From a virus, in IMG/VR virus record IMGVR_UViG_3300045988_069534: a DNA stretch of 35,728 bases. One strand, given 5' to 3'. The translations under genes were made by a program, and so were the position numbers. Positions 1,074-15,253 of the stretch are shown here, in pieces (position 1 is the first letter of the stretch; each line of letters starts with the position of its first letter). The notes below the pieces were generated by a model, which saw only the letters and a program-made list of their open reading frames with translations, ran no database searches and had not been told where the DNA came from.

Positions 1074-1092
1074 CTTGTTTCGTCTCCCTTCG

Positions 1093-2112
1093 TCAAATTG
1101 TAGATCCGCAGTCCAGCGCCCCGTATTCCATTTTGCGTCGCTTGCAATCTTGCAGCATTGCTTCAAGGCAGCGCAGATCGTCTTCGTTCAAGTAGATGTA
1201 GTATTTTTCAAGCATTTTCAGTGCATGCAGACGCCGTGCATTCTCTTTTTCTTCTTCTGTTGTGTCGGTATCCGACGCCGACGGCTGCATCTGTGCCAGT
1301 GTGGCTTTTGTGTGTTCCTCTTCTGCCTTTTCTTCCTGCTCTCCGGTTGCTTCTTCCGGCTCTGTGTCTTCTTCCGGCTCTGCTGCCGCTGCCTTCTTCC
1401 GTTCGATCATTTCCTTGATCTCGGTTCCCTTTATGTCTTCGCCTGCTGCCGCACGCTCTGCAATGTCGTTCTGTTCCTCTTCTGACAGACTGCTTGCAGC
1501 TGCTGCCGCCGTCACTCCGATTGTTCCGGCTTCAAATTGTTCTTTCAGTGCATCTGTTCCGTTGTTGTTGATCCTGTTCCAGTCTCCCACGACTGCTGCC
1601 GACGTCTTCATGATCTTTGCTATGTAGTCCCGGACGCGGACGCCTTTTCCCGGCAGGAAAGATCCTTCTTCCTTCGCCTGCGTCAAAACTTCTTTCCACT
1701 CTTCCGCTTCAATCATCTTGTCATAATCGGTGTAGTGCCTGTTGAATGTGTTCCCGATCAGCATGTACAGTCTGAATTCTGTTTCCGTCATGTCCTTGTA
1801 TTTGCAAGGTACTTCCCGGTATTCTTCTTTCCCGTCCTTCACAAGCAGATCTACTGCTGCGTATCTTCTGTGACCGCCAGCAAGTTTGTATTCTCCGTTG
1901 ACGCGTCCCAAGATCAACGGATCCAGCAGCCCGCCCGCCATTTCAATTCCTGCTGCCAGATCTTCAATGTCGTTCATGCTGTACTTGTTTTTCCCTGTGA
2001 TCACAATTTTTCCGTAGTCCAGCTTGATTTCCTCAAAATCTTCTGTGACTGCGTTTTCGGTCTGTGCGGTTGTCTGTTTGTTCAGTATCTTTGTGATGTC
2101 AAAGCCTGCCAT
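1093..2112 (-). CDS. parB: ParB/Spo0J-like partition or ParB-nuclease-domain protein
   Basis: ParB N-terminal domain motif (LILGRVNGEYKLAGGHRRYAA). ATG at 2112 is preceded by GGGAAAGGAA and lies 17 nt after the parA stop. The upstream 69 codons of the ORF overlap parA. Confidence 0.85.
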   Translation of the reverse strand: MAGFDITKILNKQTTAQTENAVTEDFEEIKLDYGKIVITGKNKYSMNDIEDLAAGIEMAGGLLDPLILGRVNGEYKLAGGHRRYAAVDLLVKDGKEEYREVPCKYKDMTETEFRLYMLIGNTFNRHYTDYDKMIEAEEWKEVLTQAKEEGSFLPGKGVRVRDYIAKIMKTSAAVVGDWNRINNNGTDALKEQFEAGTIGVTAAAAASSLSEEEQNDIAERAAAGEDIKGTEIKEMIERKKAAAAEPEEDTEPEEATGEQEEKAEEEHTKATLAQMQPSASDTDTTEEEKENARRLHALKMLEKYYIYLNEDDLRCLEAMLQDCKRRKMEYGALDCGSTI

Positions 2113-2128
2113 TTCCTTTCCCTGCCTT

Positions 2129-2884
2129 TCACGCTTTCTTTGTGCCTGTGTACTCTTCCATGAATTTTCTGTAATCTGTCGCCGCTGCGGATCTTGGCGA
2201 ATATGTTTCAAGCGGCTGTTTGTAATATGTTGCTGACACTGCCTTGTCGCTGTGTCTGATCCTTCTGCTGAATACGTTGTATTTGCAGTTCTTCCGCAGC
2301 CATTCTTCCGCAGCTTCATTTTCGATTGACTTTTTGTAGTCCGTCAGCAAGATTCCTGCTATTTTCAAATTACTGTTCAGCGCTTTCAGCGTTTCGATCT
2401 GCTCCGTTATCACTTCCACGCCGTCAATCGACCAGTTATCAAGCCGCACTGGGATAATTACTTCATCCGCAGCGCACAGCGCGTTGATTGTACACATCAG
2501 AATTGCTGGCGGGTTGTCAATGATGCAGTAGTCATATATTGACGCCGCCTTTTCCATGTACTCTGCAAAACGGTTGTCTTGCCTGTCTTCGCTGGTTCGC
2601 AGTTCGTTGTCTGCTTCTAGCAGCGTCATATTTGCATTGATCAGATCCACGCCTGCTGCCACGTCAGCAAATATCCCCGGTCTTTCTCTGTCAAGTATCT
2701 TTGCTGCTCCGCATTTTTCATCTTTTCTGTAACAGTCAAAGAACTGGCTTGCGTTTCCCTGTGGATCATTGTCTATCAGTAATACATTTTTCTTGTACTT
2801 CGTCCCCAGTAGCGTTGCCATGTTCGCTGCCGTCGTTGTCTTCGCTACTCCACCTTTTAAGTTGATCACCGCTATTGTTTTCAT
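2129..2884 (-). CDS. parA: ParA/Soj-family partition ATPase
   Basis: Deviant Walker A at the N-terminus (MKTIAVINLKGGVAKTTTAANMA) and LLIDNDPQGN. RBS GAAGGAAAG upstream. Confidence 0.92.
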   Translation of the reverse strand: MKTIAVINLKGGVAKTTTAANMATLLGTKYKKNVLLIDNDPQGNASQFFDCYRKDEKCGAAKILDRERPGIFADVAAGVDLINANMTLLEADNELRTSEDRQDNRFAEYMEKAASIYDYCIIDNPPAILMCTINALCAADEVIIPVRLDNWSIDGVEVITEQIETLKALNSNLKIAGILLTDYKKSIENEAAEEWLRKNCKYNVFSRRIRHSDKAVSATYYKQPLETYSPRSAAATDYRKFMEEYTGTKKA

Positions 2885-4403: not shown

Positions 4404-4598
4404 TCAAGTTGCACTTTTGAATGCCCCCTGTATTTCCATGATCTGAATTGACAAGTTGTGGATTGTGTCGCGCACGCTGCAATTTTCACAATGTTCTTTT
4501 GATCTGAATACATGATAAGGACAACGCTTGCATTCAGTTTCTTTCTGTCGCATTCCAGCTTTTAGCTGTTTCAGTTTTCCTTCTTCCTTTTCCGTCAT
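4404..4598 (-). CDS. small Cys-rich protein (64 aa; CKRC...CENC zinc-ribbon-like)
   Basis: ATG 4598 forms an ATGA overlap with the upstream stop. RBS AAAGGGAAG. Confidence 0.6.
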   Translation of the reverse strand: MTEKEEGKLKQLKAGMRQKETECKRCPYHVFRSKEHCENCSVRDTIHNLSIQIMEIQGAFKSAT

Positions 4599-4975
4599 TG
4601 GTTTTCTTCCCTTTCTGTGCTTTCTAATTCCTCGATCATTCTGTTTGTTTTACACAATTCACAGCGTTTCATGCAAAGTGGGTATTTTTCGCACTCTCGC
4701 TTCAAGACTTCTAAAAGCATCTTGTCATTTGCTTCTTGTATTCCTGTTTTTGTTGGAATACTCGACAATCCCAGCAGATAGTCGCATGTGCATTGCAAAG
4801 CTTTTGAAAGTATAGGGTAATCGGTCGCAAACGGTGTCCTGCTTCCGTTTACCCACCTGCTGATCGTCGTTTCTGTTTTTCCTGTCTTTTCCGCAAGTTC
4901 TCTTTGCGTCATATGTAATGTTGCAAACCGTTGTTGTATTCGCTCGGCTGTGATATTTTTGTTTTGTTTATTCAT
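4595..4975 (-). CDS. XRE-family HTH DNA-binding protein with C-terminal Cys cluster
   Basis: HTH_3-like segment (LHMTQRELAEKTGKTETTISRWVNGSRTP). RBS AAAGGAAG upstream of ATG 4975. Confidence 0.85.
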   Translation of the reverse strand: MNKQNKNITAERIQQRFATLHMTQRELAEKTGKTETTISRWVNGSRTPFATDYPILSKALQCTCDYLLGLSSIPTKTGIQEANDKMLLEVLKRECEKYPLCMKRCELCKTNRMIEELESTEREENQ

Positions 4976-5527: not shown

Positions 5528-6352
5528 TTATTTCCTTCCTGCTGCCTTTTGCAGCTTTTCTGTGATTTCTACTTCCCCAGTCTCCAGATTCAGCAAATAA
5601 CTTTCTGATTCATCCTGCTTCCGGTATCTTCCGTCATAGATTAGCGTGTATGTGAAGTACATAAAGCCTGTTACTTCGTGCCATGCTTCCCGTATGCTGT
5701 CTTTGTCCAGATACCAGCCCGAAGGAACCTTGACAATGTGGTTAAATGCGTTTCTGGAAGAAACTGTCTTTTTCTGTGGCTCCGGGATCACAAGATTCTT
5801 GCTGCTGTTGTATCTTCTGCCCGTGAACCCTTCACATGTTTTCATGGTTTTTTCAGAGTATTTCACAAAGTATTCTGCAAGTCGCCTGTATTGCCCGTTG
5901 TCGTCCATGGGCTTTATTGTGATCCAGCCCTTGTCCCAGCACTTTTTCAATAGCTGTGTGTCTATGGCGTTCAGCGTCATGTGGATATGTACTGCCCCGC
6001 GTTCCCCTACTTCTGGAACCCAGACGATCTTTGCTTCCTTCCCAGCTTTCTTGTATATCCGGCGAATGTTCCGCAGCAGCTTGTCAACGTCTGTCCGCAG
6101 TGCTTCTTTTGTGGCTGGTCGGTTCTCCTTCATGTATTCCCATGTGATGTACAGTGATGTTCCGTCGTAGTTCGCATTGAGGATCCACGTCAGCTTCTTC
6201 ACTGCCTGTCTGCTGTTTACCTTCTTCTGTGCTTCACAGGTCTTGTTTTCCTTCTGTCTTCTGCTCCCTTCCTTTGTGTCGGTTCTGACTGCATAATAAA
6301 ACGTGTGCTGCTTTGTCTTTCCTGCTCTGCATATTTCATGTTTGTACGGCAT
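5528..6352 (-). CDS. HUH-type rolling-circle replication initiator (Rep_1 / phiX174 gpA-like motifs)
   Basis: Motif order is SLYITWEY (motif 1-like), AVHIHMTL (HUH), then AEYFVKYSEK (YxxKY tyrosine motif). ATG 6352 is preceded by AGGGGGGA. The ORF-track TTG start at 6394 is less likely. Confidence 0.6.
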   Translation of the reverse strand: MPYKHEICRAGKTKQHTFYYAVRTDTKEGSRRQKENKTCEAQKKVNSRQAVKKLTWILNANYDGTSLYITWEYMKENRPATKEALRTDVDKLLRNIRRIYKKAGKEAKIVWVPEVGERGAVHIHMTLNAIDTQLLKKCWDKGWITIKPMDDNGQYRRLAEYFVKYSEKTMKTCEGFTGRRYNSSKNLVIPEPQKKTVSSRNAFNHIVKVPSGWYLDKDSIREAWHEVTGFMYFTYTLIYDGRYRKQDESESYLLNLETGEVEITEKLQKAAGRK

Positions 6353-6396
6353 TACTGATCCCCCTGTTTGTCGTTGGAATAATAAACTTATCAAGT

Positions 6397-7462: not shown

Positions 7463-7854
7463 AAGACAGCCCCTTTGAAAATGCGGTGAAATACAGACTT
7501 TCTCTTTGCGTCCAGTTCTGCCAGTCTGTCGCTTCCTGCTTTGTTCAGCATGTCCACCAGTTGTGCCAGTTCGTCTTTTGTGATCAGCCCGGCGCGCAGG
7601 ATCCCGTTTGCGAAGCCTGCTGCCAGTCCGGTTTTTGCAAATACGCTTTCCCGGTCTTCTGCGTGTCTTGCTTCCTGTGCCAGCTTTGCGAACTGCTGCA
7701 TTGCTTCTTCCTGTTCTTTGATTCTTCCGCGCGCCGCATGAATGAAGATAGAATCCTTCTTCACGGACATTCCGCTGATAAAGCGCATAAATTCTTCCGT
7801 CTGGCGTCTGCTCATTTCATCCAGTACAATTCCTATCGTCGGTCTTTTTAACAT
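7459..7854 (-). CDS. hypothetical protein (131 aa)
   Basis: ATG 7854 with GAAGGGAG 9 nt upstream. Overlaps the upstream stop (ATGTTAA). The 239-aa ORF-track form lies inside 7848..8525 in another frame. Confidence 0.7.
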   Translation of the reverse strand: MLKRPTIGIVLDEMSRRQTEEFMRFISGMSVKKDSIFIHAARGRIKEQEEAMQQFAKLAQEARHAEDRESVFAKTGLAAGFANGILRAGLITKDELAQLVDMLNKAGSDRLAELDAKRKSVFHRIFKGAVL

Positions 7855-8525
7855 GTTTTTTCGCTCCCTTCTGTTTTCTGTTCGTCTGTATCTTCTGCAA
7901 AGCCCAGCTGTGTGACTGATACTTCGTGCGTTGTGGCAAGGTATGGCGGCTTTCCGTCCGGCATTTTCTTTTTGTACTCTCTGGACTGCATGCGTCCGGT
8001 AATTTCCACATACGCCCCTACTTTCAGCTTTGCCGCAGCTTCCGCAACGTTTCGCCAACATACGCAAGGGATATAATCTGCGCCGTGGTGGCTGTTTACC
8101 GCCACAATAAAGCTTGTGACTGCTATTTTTCCGAAGCGTGCCGTTGCTATCCGTGGATCCTTGCAAATATGCCCGCACAGCTTGACTTCGTTCTGTGGAT
8201 CAGCTGGTGGATCATTTACTGCGATCACCTTTGCATAGATGCAGATTTTCACCCGTGGTTCGTGCGGCTCTGGGTTGTCCATGTTTTGTGTTCTTACTTC
8301 GCCGCCGATCAGCACTTCTTTTCCTTTTTTGATGTTCAAAAGTGCTTTTTTCGTCCCTGCTGCCTGCCCCGGAAACTGAACGAAAAATTTGTCTTTCGTT
8401 CCGCTTGGGCGTCTATACTCCAGTACCGCTTCATATACTTTCTGCGCCCATGTCGGCGCGTCCATAACTACGCGCGGCTTCGTCGTGATGATCCCGACAA
8501 TTCCTGCTGCATTGTTTTTGCTCAT
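7848..8525 (-). CDS. tandem OB-fold SSB-like ssDNA-binding protein, no acidic tail
   Basis: The C-terminal half matches the SSB pattern (KLCGHICKDPRIATARFGKIAVTSFIVAVN...DYIPCVCWRNVAEAAAKLKVGAYVEITGRMQSREY). The N-terminal half has a second OB-like pattern. ATG 8525 with AAAGGGGAAA upstream. Confidence 0.65.
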   Translation of the reverse strand: MSKNNAAGIVGIITTKPRVVMDAPTWAQKVYEAVLEYRRPSGTKDKFFVQFPGQAAGTKKALLNIKKGKEVLIGGEVRTQNMDNPEPHEPRVKICIYAKVIAVNDPPADPQNEVKLCGHICKDPRIATARFGKIAVTSFIVAVNSHHGADYIPCVCWRNVAEAAAKLKVGAYVEITGRMQSREYKKKMPDGKPPYLATTHEVSVTQLGFAEDTDEQKTEGSEKTC

Positions 8526-9091: not shown

Positions 9092-9385
9092 TTAGATGTG
9101 GATTGTATAATAAAGCGTTGATTGCAGATCCGCGAAGTAATAGTCCGGCGTTTCATCCGGTTTCAGCGGTGATGCAAGCCCGCGTTTCTTCCGGTCCTTG
9201 TGCCGCAGTTCCGGCACTGCTCTGAATTTCTTTACTTCGCAGCTTCCGAAGGTATCTTGCAGCTGCTTTTCTGAATCCAGCTTGTATGCTCCGACATAGC
9301 CGACAAAAAGGTCTTTTCCGTCCTTTACGATCCGCAGCCTGTCGGACGGCTCAATCAGCTGCAATATATCGTCTACTGTTGTCAT
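9092..9385 (-). CDS. hypothetical protein (97 aa)
   Basis: ATG 9385 forms an ATGA overlap with the upstream stop at 9382. Confidence 0.7.
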   Translation of the reverse strand: MTTVDDILQLIEPSDRLRIVKDGKDLFVGYVGAYKLDSEKQLQDTFGSCEVKKFRAVPELRHKDRKKRGLASPLKPDETPDYYFADLQSTLYYTIHI

Positions 9386-9792
9386 GCGTTTTCTTCTTTC
9401 GCAAGTTCTTTCAGTACTTCAACGTTCTGCTTTTCCAGAAGTGTTTCAGCCTTCACAAACGCTTTGAATGCTTTTATTGTCAGCTTGTACGATTTTTTCT
9501 TTTCTTTTTCTTTTAATCTCTCAATGATGCCTTTTTCTATTGCGCGCTTCGCCACATACTTTATACATTCAATTTCTTTTTCTTCTCGCAGTATCTCGTC
9601 GTCGCAAATCAAAGCAGTGTCGCAACTCATTATTGCGATCCCGTTTCTCGGATCAATTATGTATACAGTCTGGTCTGCGCTCACATAACTATAAAATTTT
9701 CTTGTTGCAATTTCCAGTTCGTACCCGCATTCCTTCCGTACACCTTTTACGCCTTTTTGTTGCTGTAGTGTGTAAAATATTTTCTTTTCCAT
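9382..9792 (-). CDS. hypothetical protein (136 aa)
   Basis: ATG 9792 with AGGGGGG upstream, 10 nt after the previous stop. The longer ORF-track form overlaps 9803..10018. Confidence 0.7.
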   Translation of the reverse strand: MEKKIFYTLQQQKGVKGVRKECGYELEIATRKFYSYVSADQTVYIIDPRNGIAIMSCDTALICDDEILREEKEIECIKYVAKRAIEKGIIERLKEKEKKKSYKLTIKAFKAFVKAETLLEKQNVEVLKELAKEENA

Positions 9793-9802
9793 TTTTGCCC
9801 CC

Positions 9803-10018
9803 CTATATCCCGGATCTGATCTGCTCCAGTTCTGCTGCCACATCAGCGCCGCTGTACTCTGCCAGCAGCTTTTCGCTGATCTGATACGTCCATTTTGTTG
9901 ACATTTTCAGCGCCGTTCCTATCGGCAGGATCCCGCGCTGCATCCCGATTCTGACGAACTGATCCGAAACGTGAAGCAGTGCTGCTGCTTCTGTTACCTT
10001 GATTTTTCCTGCTGTCAT
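9803..10018 (-). CDS. small HTH DNA-binding protein (excisionase/AlpA-like pattern)
   Basis: VTEAAALLHVSDQFVRIGMQRGILPIG resembles Xis/MerR-type HTH. Preceded by the conserved early-gene box. Confidence 0.55.
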   Translation of the reverse strand: MTAGKIKVTEAAALLHVSDQFVRIGMQRGILPIGTALKMSTKWTYQISEKLLAEYSGADVAAELEQIRSGI

Positions 10019-10027
10019 GTGTCTTCG

Positions 10028-10045
10028 CTCCTTTCGTCGGTGTGT
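10028..10045 (-). repeat. early-gene box copy 5 (ACACACCGACGAAAGGAG, minus sense)
   Basis: The minus strand reads TTAAACACACCGACGAAAGGAGCGAAGACAC-ATG(10018). Confidence 0.8.
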
Positions 10046-10870
10046 TTAATCTTCCCAGATCTCATTCGCTTCTTTTTCGCAATTCCTATCTATGAAATAC
10101 TGGTACAAAAATTCCTTCTGTGCTTTTGTATACCTCTTTCCCGGTGAAGTTGTCGGGATCGCGATTCCCTGCGACGGGTTATGCAGCAGCACCCAGCCGC
10201 GATCTGTCAGAAAATCGCCGTATGAAATGTATTTTCGTGCTTCCTGCTGCTTTTCTTCGTGTTCGTCGCCGTAAAACTCCGCGACGTGATCTGCCGCCCA
10301 TTCTCCGTGCATCCCGAATTCTACCGGGTGAAAAGTTCCGTTCGGCTCCAGCCACCCGTAATCGTCGTCGGTTCCTGTCTCCATGCGTTTTATGAAAGAA
10401 TCAAGAAGGGCGCTTCCGGTGCTTTCGCTTTCTTCTTCCATGTTGGCAAATAACTTTTCGCCCGTTTCTTCCCTGTACTGCTTCTGGGCTTCTCTCCTTT
10501 CCCAGCTTGACATGTAACCGCTTGCAACAAATCCCAGCTTTTCTTCTACTTGGTGCAGTTCCTTTTCTGCCTGTTCCGCTCTTTCGTGCAGCTTTTCAAG
10601 TGTTTTTGCAACGTTCCACCGTTCGTCCCTCTGATCAAGATAATGGAATCTGTAATCGTCGCCCGGATATGTCCCCGTTATCTCTGCGCGTCCGTCCAGT
10701 ATTGCAAAAGCCAGCCCCTTTCTTTCGTTGTCCGTGATCTCGTCGGATTCAAGGCAGCTTTCCAGAAGGTTTATTGCATATTCCATCTTCCCTTCATAGT
10801 GGCACTTCTCCCGCGCCAGCCGTGTGATAAAATCACCGTTTATGCTGAATGTCATTGTTCTTTCTTCCAT
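10046..10870 (-). CDS. hypothetical protein (274 aa, acidic)
   Basis: ATG 10870 is preceded by the conserved box, which includes GAAGGGAG. Protein-like composition. Confidence 0.75.
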   Translation of the reverse strand: MEERTMTFSINGDFITRLAREKCHYEGKMEYAINLLESCLESDEITDNERKGLAFAILDGRAEITGTYPGDDYRFHYLDQRDERWNVAKTLEKLHERAEQAEKELHQVEEKLGFVASGYMSSWERREAQKQYREETGEKLFANMEEESESTGSALLDSFIKRMETGTDDDYGWLEPNGTFHPVEFGMHGEWAADHVAEFYGDEHEEKQQEARKYISYGDFLTDRGWVLLHNPSQGIAIPTTSPGKRYTKAQKEFLYQYFIDRNCEKEANEIWED

Positions 10871-11166
10871 GTGTCTTCGCTCCCTTCGTCGGTGTGTGCG
10901 TTTCTCTCTGCTATGGTCAAATACTTGTCGTCGATCAGCTGATCTATGTCGATCAGATTCTGTCTGAACTGTTCTTCCTTTATATGTCGCCAGATCGTGT
11001 GCCTGCTGCCTATGTACATCAGCGATTGAAAAACATCTGTCAGCGTGTATTTTTCAAAAGGTCTGCTGCCGTCCTTAGCTATGTACTGCTGATAATTCGG
11101 CAATAACTCCCGCAGGGCTGCTTCTTCTTTCTCTGTCAAGTCATATTTGACCGTGTACTGTGTCAT
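10852..11166 (-). CDS. hypothetical protein (104 aa)
   Basis: ATG 11166 is preceded by a variant of the box. The 3' end overlaps the next gene by 19 nt. Confidence 0.7.
   Translation of the reverse strand: MTQYTVKYDLTEKEEAALRELLPNYQQYIAKDGSRPFEKYTLTDVFQSLMYIGSRHTIWRHIKEEQFRQNLIDIDQLIDDKYLTIAERNAHTDEGSEDTWKKEQ
10880..10898 (-). repeat. early-gene box copy 4 (CACACACCGACGAAGGGAG)
   Basis: The minus strand reads GCACACACCGACGAAGGGAGCGAAGACAC-ATG(10870). It lies inside the 3' coding end of 10852..11166. Confidence 0.8.
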
Positions 11167-11173
11167 GTCGTGT

Positions 11174-11193
11174 CTCCTTTCTTCGGTGTGTGG
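11174..11193 (-). repeat. early-gene box copy 3, variant (CCACACACCGAAGAAAGGAG)
   Basis: The minus strand reads AACCACACACCGAAGAAAGGAGACACGAC-ATG(11166). Confidence 0.7.
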
Positions 11194-11212
11194 TTATTTT
11201 CTCTTTATTTTC

Positions 11213-11241
11213 TTTATTTTTTTATTTGTTTCTGATATAAT
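11213..11241 (+). promoter_or_regulatory. extended -10 promoter candidate for the plus-strand unit
   Basis: TGaTATAAT at 11233..11241, with a weak -35 (TTTATT) 17 bp upstream in an AT-rich tract. Confidence 0.4.
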
Positions 11242-11275
11242 ATGTTTGTCGCCTTACGAAAGGATGTGATCGCGT

Positions 11276-11458
11276 ATGGTAATAGACAATATTGTATTTT
11301 CGGAAGAAATGAGCGCCGCAACCTTGACGGTTGCTATGCTCCCTTATCTTTCCTTTGAATATGAAAAAGCCTACAATACCGCCGATCTGCTGGAAATCGC
11401 TGTCAGAATATACAATGATATTCTTGATCGCTTTTCCGGCGTGAATTCTCAAAAATAG
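11276..11458 (+). CDS. small hypothetical protein (60 aa), the only plus-strand ORF inside the early region
   Basis: ATG with GAAAGGA 11 nt upstream. Balanced composition (MVIDNIVFSEEMSAATLTVAMLPYLSFEYEKAYNTADLLEIAVRIYNDILDRF...). Flanked by a promoter and a terminator on the same strand. Confidence 0.4.
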   Translation: MVIDNIVFSEEMSAATLTVAMLPYLSFEYEKAYNTADLLEIAVRIYNDILDRFSGVNSQK

Positions 11459-11481
11459 CCGCAAACTATTTTTTTTGATCC

Positions 11482-11530
11482 ACAAACCGACGAAGTATAC
11501 AACCGACGAAAATACACATCCCGACGAAAC
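11482..11530 (+). repeat. three tandem plus-sense copies of the box core (ACA..CCGACGAA)
   Basis: CCGACGAA occurs at 11487..11494, 11503..11510 and 11521..11528 (offsets 16 and 18 nt). Copy 1, CACAAACCGACGAAG, differs from the box by 1 nt. Confidence 0.75.
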
Positions 11531-11576
11531 TTTGCTGCTTATGCAGCACCACTAAATACAGGCGACATTCTATGGC

Positions 11577-11610
11577 AAGCGTTGTGTGTCCAGCACAGCG
11601 CTTGTTTTTA
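11577..11610 (+). terminator. plus-strand intrinsic terminator closing the small plus unit
   Basis: 10-bp stem AAGCGUUGUG (11577..11586) / CACAGCGCUU (11594..11603), including one G-U pair, followed by GUUUUUA. Confidence 0.5.
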
Positions 11611-11844
11611 TGTAAGTTCTACGAAGTAGTTGTCTTCTGTCTCTCTTCCTAAATCCTTGAAAAATGCGTAGCGGTTGCCGTTGTATTCTTCCAGAATCCC
11701 GTAAAATTCGATCTTTGCTCTGAATGCTCCGCGCTGCTGCACTGCTTCGTCGATATTTTCCAGCGTTGTGATTGTTCCCCATACGCTGCCGCACGTCACA
11801 TCATTTATACAATCAAGGCTGTATCTTCCTTTACTCTGCAACAT
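11608..11844 (-). CDS. hypothetical protein (78 aa)
   Basis: ATG 11844 is preceded by the conserved box. Overlaps the upstream gene by 14 nt. Confidence 0.7.
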   Translation of the reverse strand: MLQSKGRYSLDCINDVTCGSVWGTITTLENIDEAVQQRGAFRAKIEFYGILEEYNGNRYAFFKDLGRETEDNYFVELT

Positions 11845-12397
11845 TTTTTCTTTCTCCCTTCGTCGGTGTGTAGTCTTTCATCTCTACTGGTTCTTCGCTT
11901 GCGTCTTCCCCGGTTGCGTAGTTCTTGTCTGACGGGAAAGTGGTATATTGTCCCGTGTATATGCCGTACATCCCGGAACCACCCGAACTAAATCTGAACC
12001 ATGCCGGGCGCTTGCACAGTACGCGTTTTATTCCTATGCGTGCAAGTCCTTTTTCAGTGGTTGCCTGTGTCCATTTTACTGTACCGTCCGGCATTTCTAC
12101 GCGAAGTTTGCTTGTCTTTCCATATCCCGTGAAGGATCTGCACTGACACCACTTTGCATTCACTAGCACGCCGTCAAGCGTTGCGTATTCTACAAACCAG
12201 TCAAAGCCGCCGTTCTGGATCAGCTTTATTTTGTCCCTTGCAAGATCTCTTCCGCGTTCTTCCACTCTCATTGATACGAAGCAATCTTCTTGATCTGTTT
12301 CGCCATTGTTTATCCTGTCCCAACGGCGCGACATTTGATTTTCGTATCTTTCGATCTCTGCTTCAAGTTCCCGGATCAATTCTTCCCCATACTTCAT
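11831..12397 (-). CDS. hypothetical protein (188 aa)
   Basis: ATG 12397 is preceded by the conserved box. First gene after the cro-like gene. Confidence 0.75.
   Translation of the reverse strand: MKYGEELIRELEAEIERYENQMSRRWDRINNGETDQEDCFVSMRVEERGRDLARDKIKLIQNGGFDWFVEYATLDGVLVNAKWCQCRSFTGYGKTSKLRVEMPDGTVKWTQATTEKGLARIGIKRVLCKRPAWFRFSSGGSGMYGIYTGQYTTFPSDKNYATGEDASEEPVEMKDYTPTKGERKNVAE
11854..11872 (-). repeat. early-gene box copy 2 (TACACACCGACGAAGGGAG)
   Basis: The minus strand reads GACTACACACCGACGAAGGGAGAAAGAAAAA-ATG(11844). It lies in the coding 3' end of 11831..12397, in a different frame from copy 4. Confidence 0.8.
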
Positions 12398-12406
12398 GTT
12401 TTCTTT

Positions 12407-12428
12407 CTCTCCTTCGTCGGTGTGTGTG
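12407..12428 (-). repeat. early-gene box copy 1 (CACACACACCGACGAAGGAGAG)
   Basis: The minus strand reads ATCACACACACCGACGAAGGAGAGAAAGAAAAC-ATG(12397). Confidence 0.8.
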
Positions 12429-12436
12429 ATGTTGGT

Positions 12437-12679
12437 TTATACCAGCTGTGCTGCCTTGTCCTGCTCCCAGATTCCCGCTTCTGCTGCTATTGCATCCGGG
12501 TTCGCTCCCATGGCTTTGCAGATTTCGTAGTATTCTGTAACTTCTATTTTTCTTTTTTCATTGAGCATAGCCCCCAGAATCTGCGGTCTGATTCCTGCTT
12601 TATCGGACACGAACTGCTGCTTGATTCCGTGGCGCTTCATGTATGTTTTCAATGTGTTTCCCATGGTTTTGTTTGCCAT
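12437..12679 (-). CDS. Cro-like XRE-family HTH regulator (80 aa)
   Basis: HTH_3 pattern (LKTYMKRHGIKQQFVSDKAGIRPQILGAMLNEKRKI). Divergent from the repressor gene. RBS AAAGGAGAAA. Confidence 0.85.
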   Translation of the reverse strand: MANKTMGNTLKTYMKRHGIKQQFVSDKAGIRPQILGAMLNEKRKIEVTEYYEICKAMGANPDAIAAEAGIWEQDKAAQLV

Positions 12680-12699
12680 TCCGTTTTTCTCCTTTCATG

Positions 12700-12773
12700 T
12701 ACTGCATTTCTGTATATTTGCATGATAATACTGCAATACAGTTTTGTCAATACTTTTTTACTGTTTTTCTGTA
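12700..12773. promoter_or_regulatory. three operator-like sites in the divergent switch region
   Basis: TACTGCATTTCTGTA (12700..12714), TACTGCAATACAGT (12729..12742) and TACTGTTTTTCTGTA (12759..12773). The half-sites TACTG/CAGTA-like are inverted. Site starts are 29-30 bp apart. Confidence 0.55.
12722..12750 (-). promoter_or_regulatory. early lytic (PR-like) promoter
   Basis: Minus strand has TTGACA (12750..12745), a 17-bp spacer, then TATCAT (12727..12722). Operator site 2 lies in the spacer. Confidence 0.6.
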
Positions 12774-12781
12774 CTTTTTTA

Positions 12782-12810
12782 TTGAAAGTCTTGTTTTGCT
12801 GTGGTAATAT
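12782..12810 (+). promoter_or_regulatory. repressor-gene promoter
   Basis: TTGAAA (12782..12787), 17-bp spacer, TGg-TAATAT (12802..12810). Lies 28 nt upstream of ATG 12839. Confidence 0.6.
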
Positions 12811-12838
12811 ACATTTAAAGAAAGGCGGTAACACATAA

Positions 12839-13213
12839 ATGACAATACAAACAGAGAAGAAAATAAAAGAGAATATCCAGAAAAACCTTGTATTCTATAG
12901 AAAAAAATTGAAGATAACCCAGCGGCAACTTGCTGATTATTTAGAAACTGGCGTTTCTACTGTTTCCGGCTGGGAACGTGGCGCATACACTCCAGACATT
13001 GACACGTTATTTGCAATTTGCAAACTGTTTCATATAGGTTTGAATGATATGTGTGGAATATCTGCTGATAACTCCCCACTTACCGACGACGAAAACGACC
13101 TTCTGAATACATACAAGATTCTGAATGACGCAGGACGTCAAAAGCTGTTAGAACGTGCTGTAGAACTCCGGGATCTGGGGTATGTAAAAGGGGCCGCAGA
13201 AAAAATGGCATAA
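12839..13213 (+). CDS. CI-like XRE-family repressor (124 aa, no S24 peptidase domain)
   Basis: HTH_3 pattern (LVFYRKKLKITQRQLADYLETGVSTVSGWERGAYTPDIDTLFAICKLF). Divergent from the cro-like gene. Confidence 0.88.
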   Translation: MTIQTEKKIKENIQKNLVFYRKKLKITQRQLADYLETGVSTVSGWERGAYTPDIDTLFAICKLFHIGLNDMCGISADNSPLTDDENDLLNTYKILNDAGRQKLLERAVELRDLGYVKGAAEKMA

Positions 13214-13275
13214 AGTACCAGAAAAATGGAAAAGTTATACATATTGATTTTCATACATAGAAAGGAAGATGCGAC

Positions 13276-13821
13276 TTGAAAAAATTTTTACTTTATTTCT
13301 TTGGTATCTGTTGCGTAATTTCAAGTGTTGTCGGTTTTATACAATATGGAATTCTAAATGGTGTCACTTGTTTGATCATAGGCGTTGTGCTTATCTCATT
13401 AGCCCGCCAGCCCAGTGATCCTGCTGCTGTAGATTCTCCCGAAGCTGTGCAGCCACAATCGCAGCCGCAGCGAACAAAGACCATCACTTTTGATGTTGCT
13501 GGTGTCACTTTCAACAACGAAAGTGGGCGGCTTCGCTCCAGACAAACGATATTGAAAAAAATTTCCTTTTGTGATCCACCGTTTGATTCTGGATATGCCG
13601 CACGTCTTGAAAGGTATTTATATAATGATGAACCCGCCTATTATGTATATGTGAATGATTATATAGTCGGCAACGTTCCGAAAGGTTTTATTCCTTACTT
13701 GGAGAAAAACGCCGGGCGTCCTTATATCGTGGAATATTTCAAAGTACACGGCGGCGGCAAGAAAAAATATTATGGTGCTGAAATGAGAATAAAATATACA
13801 GATATAGAAGGTGAAGAATAA
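13276..13821 (+). CDS. membrane-anchored HIRAN-like domain protein (181 aa)
   Basis: TTG start with AGAAAGGAAG 7 nt upstream. N-terminal TM region (LLYFFGICCVISSVVGFIQYGILNGVTCLIIGVVLISL). The C-terminal region fits the HIRAN pattern (FDVAGVTF...RQTIL...LERYLYNDEPAYYVYVNDYIVGNVPKGFIPYLEKN...). Confidence 0.65.
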   Translation: MKKFLLYFFGICCVISSVVGFIQYGILNGVTCLIIGVVLISLARQPSDPAAVDSPEAVQPQSQPQRTKTITFDVAGVTFNNESGRLRSRQTILKKISFCDPPFDSGYAARLERYLYNDEPAYYVYVNDYIVGNVPKGFIPYLEKNAGRPYIVEYFKVHGGGKKKYYGAEMRIKYTDIEGEE

Positions 13822-14118: not shown

Positions 14119-14158
14119 CGCCTTTTTTCCGGTAATATACAGAAAGAAGGTGCTTTTT

Positions 14159-15253
14159 ATGGCAATGAAAAGAGCAAACGGCGACGGATCCGTCTTCAAA
14201 CTCACCGGGAAACGTCGCAAACCATGGGCTGCACGAATTACAATCGGCTGGCGTCTCGATCCTGCGTCCGGGAAGCTGACGCAGGAATACCAGCTGATCG
14301 GAACCTTTGCAACCCGGATCGAAGCTGAAACGGCTTTGAACGATTTCTTGCAGAATCCCTATGACATCAACGCACACAAGCTGACGTTTTCCGAAGTGTA
14401 CGACCTCTGGTCAAAGGAATACTACGCCACCTTGAAGAACGATTCCAGCGCCCGCAGCTACCGGGCGGCATACAAATACTGCGAACCGATCTTCAATGTC
14501 CGAATGCGTGATCTTCGCGTCTCCCACATGCAGGGCGTGATCAGTGACGCTGTTGTCGGTGATGCAACAAAAAGCCGCATGAAGTCGCTTTTCAATCTCA
14601 TGTACAAATACTGCATGATCCATGAAATTGTTGACAAGGACTACAGCGCACTATTTGTTCAAAAAGCAGGCAAACGTGACAAGGCTAAGCGTGTACCGTT
14701 CAAAAATAGCGAAGTGCAGCGCCTGTGGAAGATCCGCAGCTTTGGTGTTACGGACATGATTCTATTTTCCATGTACACGGGCTTTCGCCCTTCGGAAGTG
14801 TTGCTGATCGAAACTGTAAACGTGGATCTTGTGCGCTGGAGAATCAAAGGCGGCATCAAAACGGACGCCGGGATCGACCGGAGCGTCCCGGTGCATCCAT
14901 TGATCCGTCAGCTGGTACAGGATCACTATAACCCAGATAGCAAATACCTGTTCCCGAATGAGACTGGCGGCTTTATGACATACGATCAATACCGTGGGCG
15001 CTTCAAAAAGGTTATGCGCTATCTTGGGATCTCCCACACGCCGCATGAGCCGCGGCATACATTTATTTCATGTGCAAAGCATTTCAAGGTGAATGAAAAC
15101 TTGCTGAAAGCTATTGTCGGACATAAGATCAGAGACATAACAGAAGCCGTCTACACTCACAGGGCGTACAGCGATTATGAAGAAGCTGTGGCAATGATCA
15201 GCTATGATGGTGAAGACATAGAATTTGAATCAATCGACGCTGAATGGGATTGA
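14159..15253 (+). CDS. int: tyrosine recombinase / phage integrase
   Basis: C-terminal catalytic pattern (HEPRHTFIS...IVGHKIRDITEAVYTHR). N-terminal arm-binding-like NGDGSVFKL...RKPWAARI. ATG 14159 lies 6 nt after AGAAGGTG; the ORF-track GTG start at 14150 is inside the RBS. Confidence 0.93.
   Translation: MAMKRANGDGSVFKLTGKRRKPWAARITIGWRLDPASGKLTQEYQLIGTFATRIEAETALNDFLQNPYDINAHKLTFSEVYDLWSKEYYATLKNDSSARSYRAAYKYCEPIFNVRMRDLRVSHMQGVISDAVVGDATKSRMKSLFNLMYKYCMIHEIVDKDYSALFVQKAGKRDKAKRVPFKNSEVQRLWKIRSFGVTDMILFSMYTGFRPSEVLLIETVNVDLVRWRIKGGIKTDAGIDRSVPVHPLIRQLVQDHYNPDSKYLFPNETGGFMTYDQYRGRFKKVMRYLGISHTPHEPRHTFISCAKHFKVNENLLKAIVGHKIRDITEAVYTHRAYSDYEEAVAMISYDGEDIEFESIDAEWD

What the first reader, a model, noticed from the sequence alone, without database searches (positions are those of the whole stretch)
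10028..12428. Conserved 18-20 nt box embedding the RBS of five consecutive early genes
The start codons at 12397, 11844, 11166, 10870 and 10018 are each preceded by (C)ACACACCGACGAAGGGAG plus 7-11 nt. One copy is a variant, CCGAAGAAAGGAG. The conserved part extends about 10 nt 5' of the Shine-Dalgarno sequence.

The box is kept at the nucleotide level whether it is intergenic or inside the preceding gene's coding end. In the coding cases it sits in different reading frames: HTDEGSEDTW in one gene versus YTPTKGERK in another. Selection therefore appears to act on the nucleic acid, not the protein.

Partial copies (GACGAAGGGAG, GAAGGGAGCGAA) precede the starts at 1073 and 7854. By visual scan, the plus-strand 8-mer ttcgtcgg occurs only at these sites. 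Possible roles are a shared translational operator (RegA-like regulon), an RNA processing site, a stoperator-like DNA site, or a recombination junction.
Basis: seen in the sequence. Interest (0 to 1): 0.7.

Follow-up and report, generated by a model that had tools for sequence, protein, structure and literature searches.

The report
Shared ribosome-site box bracketing phage gene cassettes
Five unrelated early genes of a gut temperate phage start behind the same roughly 30-base ribosome-binding leader, and close relatives have gained or lost whole genes exactly at copies of it, so it behaves as a portable start signal and as a seam for gene shuffling.

Summary
The box is real. ACACACCGACGAAGGGAG (0-3 mismatches) occurs 5 times against 0.09 expected, each copy 7-10 nt before a minus-strand start codon. 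The five proteins are unrelated.

They lie in the 3' part of a small convergent transcription unit with a conserved TATAAT promoter and an intrinsic terminator.

Eight related prophage lineages carry a shorter ancestral version, CACAnACGAA-GGGAG, before orthologous and non-orthologous early genes. The ACACACCG part is specific to this lineage. Copies within one genome have been made alike.

Near-identical relatives show cassette mosaicism at the box. gp274 is present or absent in two different left contexts, with the junction inside the 30-nt repeat. Other blocks start at the first base of a box. gp188 and gp274 are each flanked by 30-33-nt direct repeats of box plus spacer.

The box survives a swap of the immunity module and does not resemble the CI/Cro operators, so a stoperator is unlikely. 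No RegA-like protein was found.

Best reading: a start-associated leader comparable to the SAS of Cluster K mycobacteriophages, which also serves as recombination homology as PeSLs do in T4-type phages. The role of the inverted array is unresolved.

The parts
12395..12425 (-). Box 1 plus A-type spacer plus ATG of gp188 (ACACACCGACGAAGGAGAGAAAGAAAACATG). Intergenic, 11 nt after the cro stop.
11842..11871 (-). Box 2 plus A-type spacer plus ATG of gp78. Lies inside the 3' end of gp188. With box 1 it forms a 31-nt direct repeat (29 of 31) flanking gp188.
   Evidence: block homology in L103 starts exactly at 11871
11164..11191 (-). Box 3 (variant ACACACCGAAGAAAGGAG) plus spacer plus ATG of gp104. 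Intergenic. The C/A position is polymorphic among close relatives.
10868..10897 (-). Box 4 plus B-type spacer plus ATG of gp274. Lies inside the 3' end of gp104.
   Evidence: L105 homology resumes at 10897; the PAPS-reductase-like insertion in L102 and L105 ends here
10016..10045 (-). Box 5 plus B-type spacer plus ATG of gp71. Abuts the gp274 stop codon. With box 4 it forms a 30-nt direct repeat (29 of 30) flanking gp274.
   Evidence: L103 and L102 lack gp274, with the junction in this repeat
11482..11528 (+). Three tandem SD-less inverted copies: ACAAACCGACGAA at 11482, ACAACCGACGAA at 11499 and ACACATCCCGACGAA at 11514. Predicted single-stranded in the plus-strand RNA.
   Evidence: an array at this position, CGACGA(A)-N11-13-ACAC-N2-4-CGACGA(A), is present in all 7 lineages aligned (8 loci: W, L052, L094, L109, L050, L088, L089, L092)
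11236..11606 (+). Convergent opposite-strand unit. It comprises an invariant TATAAT at 11236-11241, a 60-aa ORF at 11276-11458, the array, a small hairpin at 11534-11547 and an intrinsic terminator at 11574-11606.
9803..12397 (-). The five box-preceded genes: gp188 (11831-12397), gp78 (11608-11844), gp104 (10852-11166), gp274 (10046-10870) and gp71 (9803-10018). All are of unknown function and mutually unrelated.
7860..7871 (-). Partial copy GAAGGGAGCGAA before the ATG at 7854 (the gene after SSB). In L088 and L094 the orthologous position has ACACA(A/G)CGACGAAAGGAAGG.
1084..1096 (-). Partial copy TTGACGAAGGGAG before a GTG at 1073.

Best explanation
The box is the lineage-specific, homogenised form of a start-associated leader. 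It consists of a C/A-rich tract, then (CCG)ACGAA, then a long Shine-Dalgarno sequence (SD) GA(A/G)GGAG, then a purine-rich spacer. It heads the accessory early genes downstream of cro in a family of temperate siphoviruses from the human gut.

In the mRNA it most likely acts as a self-contained, unstructured, strong ribosome-binding site. This lets any gene placed behind it be translated whatever lies upstream. This step is inferred.

In the DNA the 18-33-bp direct copies bracket individual genes. They are the homology at which those genes are deleted, inserted and exchanged between related phages. This is shown by natural variants. Repeated exchange and conversion at the copies is what keeps them alike within one genome. 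This step is inferred.

No dedicated binding factor is required by the data, and none is excluded. The three SD-less inverted copies belong to a conserved convergent transcription unit and their role is unresolved.
For: 1. The box is strongly over-represented and always in the same register with a start codon.

2. Its 3' part, GAAAGGAG or GAAGGGAG, is an 8-nt match (one G-U pair) to the complement of the Firmicutes 16S 3' end, AGAAAGGAGG. This rests on established knowledge; the host rRNA was not available.

3. Across 8 lineages, CACAtACGAA|GGGAG is kept before gp104 orthologues and ACGAA|GGGAG|AAAAGAAAAATG before gp78 orthologues. This holds although the upstream contexts differ, and for gp104 the SD-ATG spacers differ too.

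4. Each lineage has its own homogenised version. L092 has ATCACATACGAAGGGAGAA three times. L088 has a 33-nt identical repeat on both sides of the gp188 homologue. The window lineage has ACACACCGACGAA five times.

5. The gp78 leader of the window lineage equals the ancestral GACTACGAAGGGAG plus an 8-nt insertion that recreates the box. This indicates copying between leaders.

6. Cassette evidence among 90-99% identical genomes:
- window: gp104-[box]-gp274-[box]-gp71
- L103: gp104-[box]-gp71
- L105: gp104-PAPS-[box]-gp274-[box]-gp71 (PAPS = a pair of PAPS-reductase-like genes)
- L102: gp104-PAPS-[box]-gp71

7. Six of 15 distinct internal homology breakpoints between 12450 and 10000 fall within 6 nt of a box edge or inside a box. 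Boxes plus spacers make up about 8% of that stretch.

8. All other lineages have gp104 overlapping gp71 with no box. gp274 with its two boxes is therefore an insertion.

9. The five proteins are unrelated.
Against: - Breakpoints at gene boundaries are expected in mosaic phages anyway, and here the gene boundaries are the boxes. BLAST ends are also approximate.
- Some junctions are not at boxes. The left end of the PAPS insertion lies 6 nt upstream of box 4 without a box of its own. The L003 and L103 junction is at 11210. The L095 and L096 deletions use 6-7-nt microhomologies inside genes.
- Within the lineage the 5' part of the box varies at 5 of 65 positions, only slightly less than the flanks. 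Extra purifying selection on it is therefore not demonstrated.
- A plain ribosome-site role does not explain why the C/A-rich-ACGAA part 5' of the SD is conserved across lineages.
- It does not explain either why SD-less copies persist in inverted orientation in a conserved transcription unit.
- No expression or recombination data exist.
Confidence: 0.5

Rival explanations
1. RNA-level regulon. The part of the box 5' of the SD is a shared operator bound by a phage or host RNA-binding protein or a small RNA, which co-regulates translation of the accessory early genes. The plus-strand RNA with three SD-less copies acts as a decoy. Alternatively, the complement of the array in the read-through early transcript acts as an anti-leader that pairs with the boxes.
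For: - The C/A-rich-ACGAA part cannot pair with the anti-SD, yet it is conserved across lineages.
- All 8 copies have the same orientation relative to local transcription.
- The array copies are predicted single-stranded, between a small hairpin and a terminator, as in sponge RNAs.
- In each lineage the array units resemble that lineage's own leaders. Own-array local scores are 8-12.5 for most box leaders (L052 only 6.5) against 4.5-7.5 (one 9) for other leaders. L052 and L094 differ as CACAG versus GACTA in the array and as CACAA versus GACTA in the gp78 leader.
- In the window lineage the early-strand fold pairs box 3 with an array complement, with mean probability 0.62. Duplex energies are -24 to -32 kcal/mol against -18 +/- 3.5 for other leaders.
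Against: - The long-range pairing is predicted only in the window lineage and not in seven other loci. The duplex energies follow from the sequence identity by construction.
- L003 and L108 keep box leaders without any array.
- No RNA-binding family was found among the early proteins, and there was no Rfam hit.
- In four lineages the array lies inside a 47-aa ORF.
- The correlated changes rest on about three independent states.
Confidence: 0.2
2. DNA-level sites, stoperator-like or roadblock. A phage DNA-binding protein recognises ACAnnCCGACGAA at the five gene starts and, cooperatively, at the three-site array. This silences or paces early transcription.
For: - The sites are asymmetric, in one orientation relative to transcription, and clustered at starts of early genes, as with L5 stoperators.
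- A tandem array with 16-18-bp spacing looks like a cooperative binding site.
- Several HTH proteins are encoded: CI, Cro, gp71 with an excisionase-like N-terminus (my reading of its sequence; no Pfam hit), and the 126-aa HTH protein at 4595-4975.
Against: - The CI/Cro operators are unlike the box.
- The boxes survive replacement of the CI DNA-binding half and of cro in L003.
- The sites are confined to 2.4 kb rather than spread over the genome.
- A DNA site need not sit in fixed register with the SD and start codon, nor share the spacer down to the ATG.
- The motif differs between leaders of one genome in other lineages.
Confidence: 0.08
3. No selected role beyond an ordinary ribosome-binding site. 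On this view the repeats are recent scars: each cassette arrived from a common donor region with its flanking leader, and the inverted units are decaying remnants.
For: - gp274 arrived as a block with a box at each end, at a place where other lineages have none.
- The box varies within the lineage about as much as its flanks do.
- Distant homologues of gp274 and gp71 lack it.
Against: - The CACAnACGAAGGGAG core is kept before orthologues in 8 lineages that differ by 16-30% in protein sequence, while for gp104 the adjacent spacers diverge.
- Array units persist at the same place in all 7 lineages aligned, whose surrounding non-coding DNA no longer aligns.
- Homogenised, lineage-specific versions imply continuing exchange rather than decay.
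Confidence: 0.17
4. RNA processing site. An endoribonuclease cuts the polycistronic early transcript at each box, by analogy with T4 RegB cutting at GGAG in early ribosome-binding sites.
For: The box sits at the boundary of every cistron and contains GGAG or GGGAG. This is an analogy only.
Against: - No RegB-like or other nuclease family was detected next to these genes. VRR-NUC and a ParB-like protein are encoded elsewhere.
- No structure or other cleavage signal is evident.
- The inverted copies lack GGAG.
Confidence: 0.05

Closest known systems
Start-Associated Sequences (SAS) of Cluster K mycobacteriophages (Pope et al. 2011, PMC3203893). Similar repeats were noted in the Felix O1-like phage Mordin (PMC4611695).
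   Same: - A short asymmetric repeat that contains the SD core, with conserved bases that cannot pair with 16S rRNA.
- It lies a few nt upstream of start codons.
- It is restricted to non-structural early genes.
- It sits in front of genes of different families.
- It occurs in one orientation, with rare reverse copies that are not at gene starts.
- It is specific to one phage group.
- Its function is still unknown (PMC12699233, PMC11373665).
   Different: - The sequence is unrelated (GGGATAGGAGCCC versus ACACACCGACGAAGGGAG), and so are the host phylum and phage group.
- There are 5 copies rather than 11-19.
- Two copies lie inside the preceding gene rather than in gaps of more than 50 bp.
- There is no ESAS-type 17-bp inverted repeat upstream.
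- The similarity here extends through the spacer to the ATG.
- The copies demonstrably bracket cassettes that come and go.
- The reverse copies form a tandem array inside a conserved convergent transcription unit.
PeSL regulatory cassettes of T4-type phages (Arbiol et al. 2010, PMC2839356; PMC4122927)
   Same: - A short conserved expression signal repeated between small non-essential ORFs of a hyperplastic early region.
- Insertions, deletions and replacements that distinguish close relatives are bounded by the repeat.
- The repeat serves as homology for modular shuffling.
   Different: - A PeSL is an early promoter plus a terminator stem-loop (a transcription signal, about 50-70 bp). This box is a translation-initiation leader without promoter or hairpin.
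- Mini-circles have not been looked for here.
Stoperators of Cluster A mycobacteriophages (L5)
   Same: Asymmetric 13-14-bp sites oriented with transcription and often near gene starts.
   Different: - Stoperators are copies of the repressor's operator and are spread over both genome arms.
- This box is unlike the CI/Cro operators, survives an immunity swap and is confined to 2.4 kb.
Translational operators of T4 RegA, and C/A-rich enhancer elements targeted by the small RNA GcvB
   Same: A shared sequence at or just 5' of the ribosome-binding site of several mRNAs could allow joint translational control. The C/A-rich tract resembles known translational enhancers. This comparison rests on my own knowledge.
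   Different: No RegA homologue and no complementary small RNA was identified. The only complementary sequence is the antisense of the array, and its pairing is not conserved.

Membership tests
Start-associated sequence (SAS-type repeat) | Short asymmetric repeat, many-fold over-represented, immediately upstream of start codons | tested here: met
   5 copies against 0.09 expected, each 7-10 nt before an ATG
Start-associated sequence (SAS-type repeat) | Contains the SD core plus conserved positions that cannot pair with 16S rRNA | tested here: inconclusive
   GA(A/G)GGAG fits the Firmicutes anti-SD (knowledge). ACACACCGAC does not. The host's own 16S 3' end could not be retrieved.
Start-associated sequence (SAS-type repeat) | Restricted to non-structural genes, in one orientation, in front of unrelated gene families | tested here: met
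   All gene-associated copies lie in 10016-12425 on the early strand. The proteins are unrelated.
Start-associated sequence (SAS-type repeat) | Consensus GGGATAGGAGCCC, Cluster K actinobacteriophage (homology to the named family) | tested here: not met
   Different sequence and an unrelated Firmicutes-type phage. This is an analogue, not a member.
PeSL-type shuffling cassette | Differences between close relatives (indels, replacements) are bounded by the repeat | tested here: met
   gp274 is present or absent in two contexts. Blocks start at 11871, 10897 and 10045. 6 of 15 breakpoints fall at boxes.
PeSL-type shuffling cassette | The repeat is an early promoter plus a terminator stem-loop | tested here: not met
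   No promoter-like or hairpin element lies in or next to the boxes.
PeSL-type shuffling cassette | Circular excision products (mini-circles) formed by repeat-to-repeat recombination | not testable with these tools
   Needs outward-facing PCR or long reads on lysates.
Stoperator (Cluster A type) | Same sequence as the immunity repressor's operator, and dependent on that repressor | tested here: not met
   The operators at 12700-12790 are of the type TACAGAAAnnCAGTA. The boxes are retained in L003 with a different CI N-terminus and cro.
Stoperator (Cluster A type) | Tens of sites dispersed over the genome | tested here: not met
   Only 8 sites, all within 10016-12425.
RegA-type translational operator | Phage encodes a RegA-like RNA-binding repressor | tested here: not met
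   No such Pfam or PHROG family among the early proteins. ORFans remain, so the evidence is weak.
Replication origin iterons (for the rolling-circle-type Rep at 5528-6394) | The repeat array is indispensable and linked to the rep gene | tested here: not met
   The array is absent from L003 and from L107/L108. L003 still retains part of the rep region (homology to window 5868). The array lies 5 kb from rep.

The most novel reading that the evidence does not exclude
The boxes and the inverted SD-less array may form one RNA circuit. In this reading the conserved convergent RNA (11236-11606) carries mimics of the 5' halves of the early leaders. The read-through early transcript carries their complements. 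Leader, anti-leader and mimic would then compete, setting when the accessory early genes are translated, or shutting them off in the lysogen. The array units would co-evolve with the leaders of each lineage.
Probability: 0.12. Interest if true: 0.75.

Novelty: new variant of a known kind. Interest (0 to 1): 0.45.

Why it matters
Start-associated repeats have been known since 2011, but their function is still untested. They have been described mainly in actinobacteriophages.

This is an unrelated example in a family of human-gut prophages. For this family there are many near-identical natural variants, and they show genes entering and leaving exactly at the repeat.

That gives a concrete, testable role: a portable translation start that doubles as recombination homology. 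It is a translational counterpart of the promoter-terminator PeSL cassettes of T4-type phages.

The work also defines a small system in which a possible RNA decoy or anti-leader function could be tested by mutagenesis. The system consists of five leaders, one convergent RNA with three SD-less copies, and natural variants with and without the array.

Tried and rejected
- **Public phage records.** There are no near relatives in INPHARED by DNA. A protein search with gp274 found only a distant homologue at 32% identity.
- **Species-representative genomes.** A scan with the 18-mer gave 15 single-copy hits, mostly in high-GC actinobacteria. I estimate about 35 by chance, so this is chance level.
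- **Single copy in a 58% GC viral lineage (L004, L011, L012).** Treated as chance.
- **Repressor operator idea.** Rejected because the operators are dissimilar and the boxes survive the immunity swap.
- **Origin or iteron idea for the array.** Rejected because the array is missing in L003 and L108.
- **Conserved long-range RNA pairing.** Predicted only in the window lineage.
- **CGACGAA as a site-specific deletion hotspot.** The L095 and L096 junctions are plain 6-7-nt microhomologies, GCAGCAG and GGAGCA.
- **Rfam.** No family matched in 9500-13500.
- **AlphaFold model of gp78.** Mean pLDDT was 51.7, too poor for a fold search.
- **Extra purifying selection on the box within the lineage.** Not demonstrable; 5 of 65 positions are variable.
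- **Metagenome scan.** It returned mostly the same lineage.


Full report
**Context**

The window is a complete, circularly permuted genome of a temperate siphovirus (47% GC). Its main parts are:
- integrase, 14150-15253 (+)
- CI-like repressor, 12839-13213 (+)
- Cro-like protein, 12437-12679 (-)
- an early operon running leftward on the minus strand
- SSB, a rolling-circle-type Rep, VRR-NUC and ParA/ParB-like genes
- terminase, structural and lysis genes, also on the minus strand

Continuity across the window ends is shown.

Relatives come from human-gut metagenomes. They are prophages integrated next to a GGGtGRT-family gene. The host taxon was not determined.

**The observation**

They are far above chance: 5 hits against 0.09 expected for the 18-mer with up to 3 mismatches, and 7 against 1.2 for the core CCGACGAA.

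The similarity continues through the spacer to the ATG, in two subtypes. Boxes 1 and 2 share ...GGAGAGAAAGAAAAcATG (29 of 31). Boxes 4 and 5 share ...GGAGCGAAGACACATG (29 of 30).

Two boxes lie in the 3' ends of the preceding genes, in different frames. The five proteins are unrelated.

They read ACAAACCGACGAA, ACAACCGACGAA and ACACATCCCGACGAA, and they lack the Shine-Dalgarno part (SD).

**The opposite-strand unit**

These three copies lie between convergent genes. They fall in the 3' part of a plus-strand unit made of:
- a TATAAT at 11236-11241
- a 60-aa ORF at 11276-11458
- the array
- a small hairpin at 11534-11547
- a 14-bp intrinsic terminator at 11574-11606

The array is predicted to be unstructured in that RNA.

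In an alignment of seven lineages, the TATAAT and its A/T-rich upstream block are invariant. The terminator is present in all of them, and so is an array of the form CGACGA(A)-N11-13-ACAC-N2-4-CGACGA(A). The rest of the non-coding DNA no longer aligns.

The 60-aa ORF is intact in the window, L052, L094 and L109. In four lineages it is replaced by a 47-aa ORF that runs through the array.

**Distribution of the box**

The exact 18-mer occurs in ten IMG/VR contigs that are 90-98% identical to the window. Further variants turned up in other collections.

More distant lineages were reached through homologues of gp71 and gp78: L049, L050/51, L052, L088, L089-91, L092/93, L094/L109 and L107/108.

These lineages carry a shorter version, C/A-rich followed by ACGAA-GGGAG. 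It sits before gp78 and gp104 orthologues, before the gp188 homologue, and before non-orthologous genes.

Anchored on the SD, CACAtACGAA is conserved before gp104 in at least 75% of eight lineages, although the upstream context and the SD-ATG spacer differ. Before gp78, ACGAA-GGGAG-AAAAGAAAAATG is conserved.

The 5' ACACACCG is specific to the window lineage. There the gp78 leader looks like the ancestral GACTACGAAGGGAG with eight bases inserted.

Other lineages have their own homogenised versions. L092 has three identical copies of a 19-mer. L088 has a 33-nt identical repeat on both sides of the gp188 homologue.

Orthologues of gp71 outside the lineage overlap gp104 and have no box. Distant gp274 homologues (37-48% identity, 38% GC phages) have none.

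**Cassette mosaicism**

Comparing 24 loci of the window lineage with the window shows the following arrangements:

| Genome | Arrangement |
|---|---|
| window | gp104-[box4]-gp274-[box5]-gp71 |
| L103 | gp104-[box]-gp71; the junction lies inside the 30-nt repeat |
| L105 | gp104-PAPS-[box]-gp274-[box]-gp71 |
| L102 | gp104-PAPS-[box]-gp71 |

PAPS stands for a pair of PAPS-reductase-like genes. gp274 is thus present or absent in two different left contexts.

Homology blocks begin at exactly the first base of a box at 11871, 10897 and 10045, and 3 nt before one at 10048. Another block ends inside box 3.

Six of 15 distinct internal breakpoints between 12450 and 10000 lie at boxes. Boxes plus spacers occupy about 8% of that stretch.

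In L088 and L094 the PAPS pair sits before gp104 instead, again between two box-type leaders.

Not all junctions are at boxes:
- the left PAPS junction, at 10903
- the 11210 junction of L003 and L103
- two deletions at 6-7-nt microhomologies inside genes

Gene boundaries are favoured junctions in phages in any case, so this evidence is strong but not conclusive.

**What the box is not**

The CI/Cro operators are unlike the box. L003 has exchanged the CI DNA-binding half, cro, gp188, gp78, the array and the 60-aa gene, yet it keeps boxes 3-5 and a box-like leader on its first early gene.

L003 and L107/108 lack the array but keep box-type leaders. The array is therefore neither the origin nor required for the boxes.

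No RegA-like or other RNA-binding family and no Rfam family was found.

**Relation between the array and the leaders**

In each lineage the array units resemble that lineage's own leaders. Own-array local scores are 8-12.5 for most box leaders (L052 only 6.5) against 4.5-7.5 (one 9) for other leaders. One clear correlated difference separates L052 from L094, and the window lineage has CCG in both elements.

Because the elements are inverted, the early transcript would carry complements of the leaders. In the window lineage the predicted fold pairs box 3 with such a complement, with mean probability 0.62. No such pairing is predicted in seven other loci.

The favourable duplex energies follow from the sequence identity itself.

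I therefore treat an RNA circuit as a minority possibility. The role of the array stays open.

**Comparison with known systems**

The closest described feature is the start-associated sequence of Cluster K mycobacteriophages. It is a 13-bp asymmetric repeat that includes the SD core, lies 3-7 nt before starts of non-structural genes of different families, and occurs in one orientation with single reverse copies. Its function was still untested in 2024-2025 (PMC3203893, PMC11373665, PMC12699233). A similar 26-bp repeat was noted in a Felix O1-like phage (PMC4611695).

For the recombination role, the closest system is the PeSL cassette of T4-type phages (PMC2839356).

The present box shares the anatomy of the first and the evolutionary behaviour of the second. 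It is a sequence homologue of neither.

**Verdict**

The most likely reading, at about 0.5, is a portable translation-initiation leader whose direct copies are the seams of cassette shuffling.

I rate it a new variant of a known kind, of moderate interest.

Noticed in passing
window 11236-11606 (+): A convergent unit sits inside the early operon: an invariant TATAAT promoter, a 60-aa ORF (11276-11458), three SD-less box copies and a strong terminator. The promoter, array and terminator are conserved in seven lineages. The ORF is replaced by a 47-aa ORF in four of them.
   Followed up: yes
window 9382-9807 (-): A second variable slot lies directly after gp71. Its gene probably starts at 9791 (about 136 aa). 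Among close relatives it is absent (L002, L003, L008, L102) or accompanied or replaced by about 1 kb of other DNA (L010, L013). The junctions are at 9807 and 9388 and no box is involved.
   Followed up: partly
window 12700-12790: Candidate CI/Cro operators. Three or four repeats of the type (G)TACAGAAAnnCAGTA overlap divergent promoter-like sites (TTGACA-17-TATCAT on the minus strand, TTGAAA-17-TAATAT on the plus strand).
   Followed up: partly
window 1093-2884 (-) and 14150-15253 (+): The phage carries a ParA-type ATPase (2129-2884) and a ParB-like protein (1093-2319) as well as a tyrosine integrase. It also has a rolling-circle-type Rep (5528-6394). No parS-like site was looked for.
   Followed up: no
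L050 3104-3186; same ORF in L088 (about 6241-6330): A 27-aa hydrophobic peptide ORF (MKEFDRLEAIFWIGITAVILIAVYFNK) lies on the early strand. It ends at the hairpin shared with the convergent unit. The arrangement is reminiscent of type I toxin-antitoxin loci. It is absent from the window.
   Followed up: no
L095 (junction 11734/10260) and L096 (junction 11725/8713), window coordinates: Two independent prophage variants carry large deletions that start within 10 nt of each other inside gp78. The junctions are at 7-nt and 6-nt microhomologies (GCAGCAG and GGAGCA). They remove the array and several box genes.
   Followed up: yes
L088 5359-5391 and 5956-5988 (approx.): A 33-nt identical direct repeat, CCGAAGCATAGAAAACAAAATCGACTACGAAGG, flanks the gp188 homologue. 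It comprises the end of the upstream gene, the stop codon and the leader. Lineages L050, L092 and L094 have cro followed directly by gp78.
   Followed up: partly
window 13140-13283 versus L003 and L103: The immunity swap has its left junction inside the CI gene. The last roughly 24 codons are shared at 85-88% identity while the HTH half differs. This implies domain-level recombination of the repressor.
   Followed up: partly
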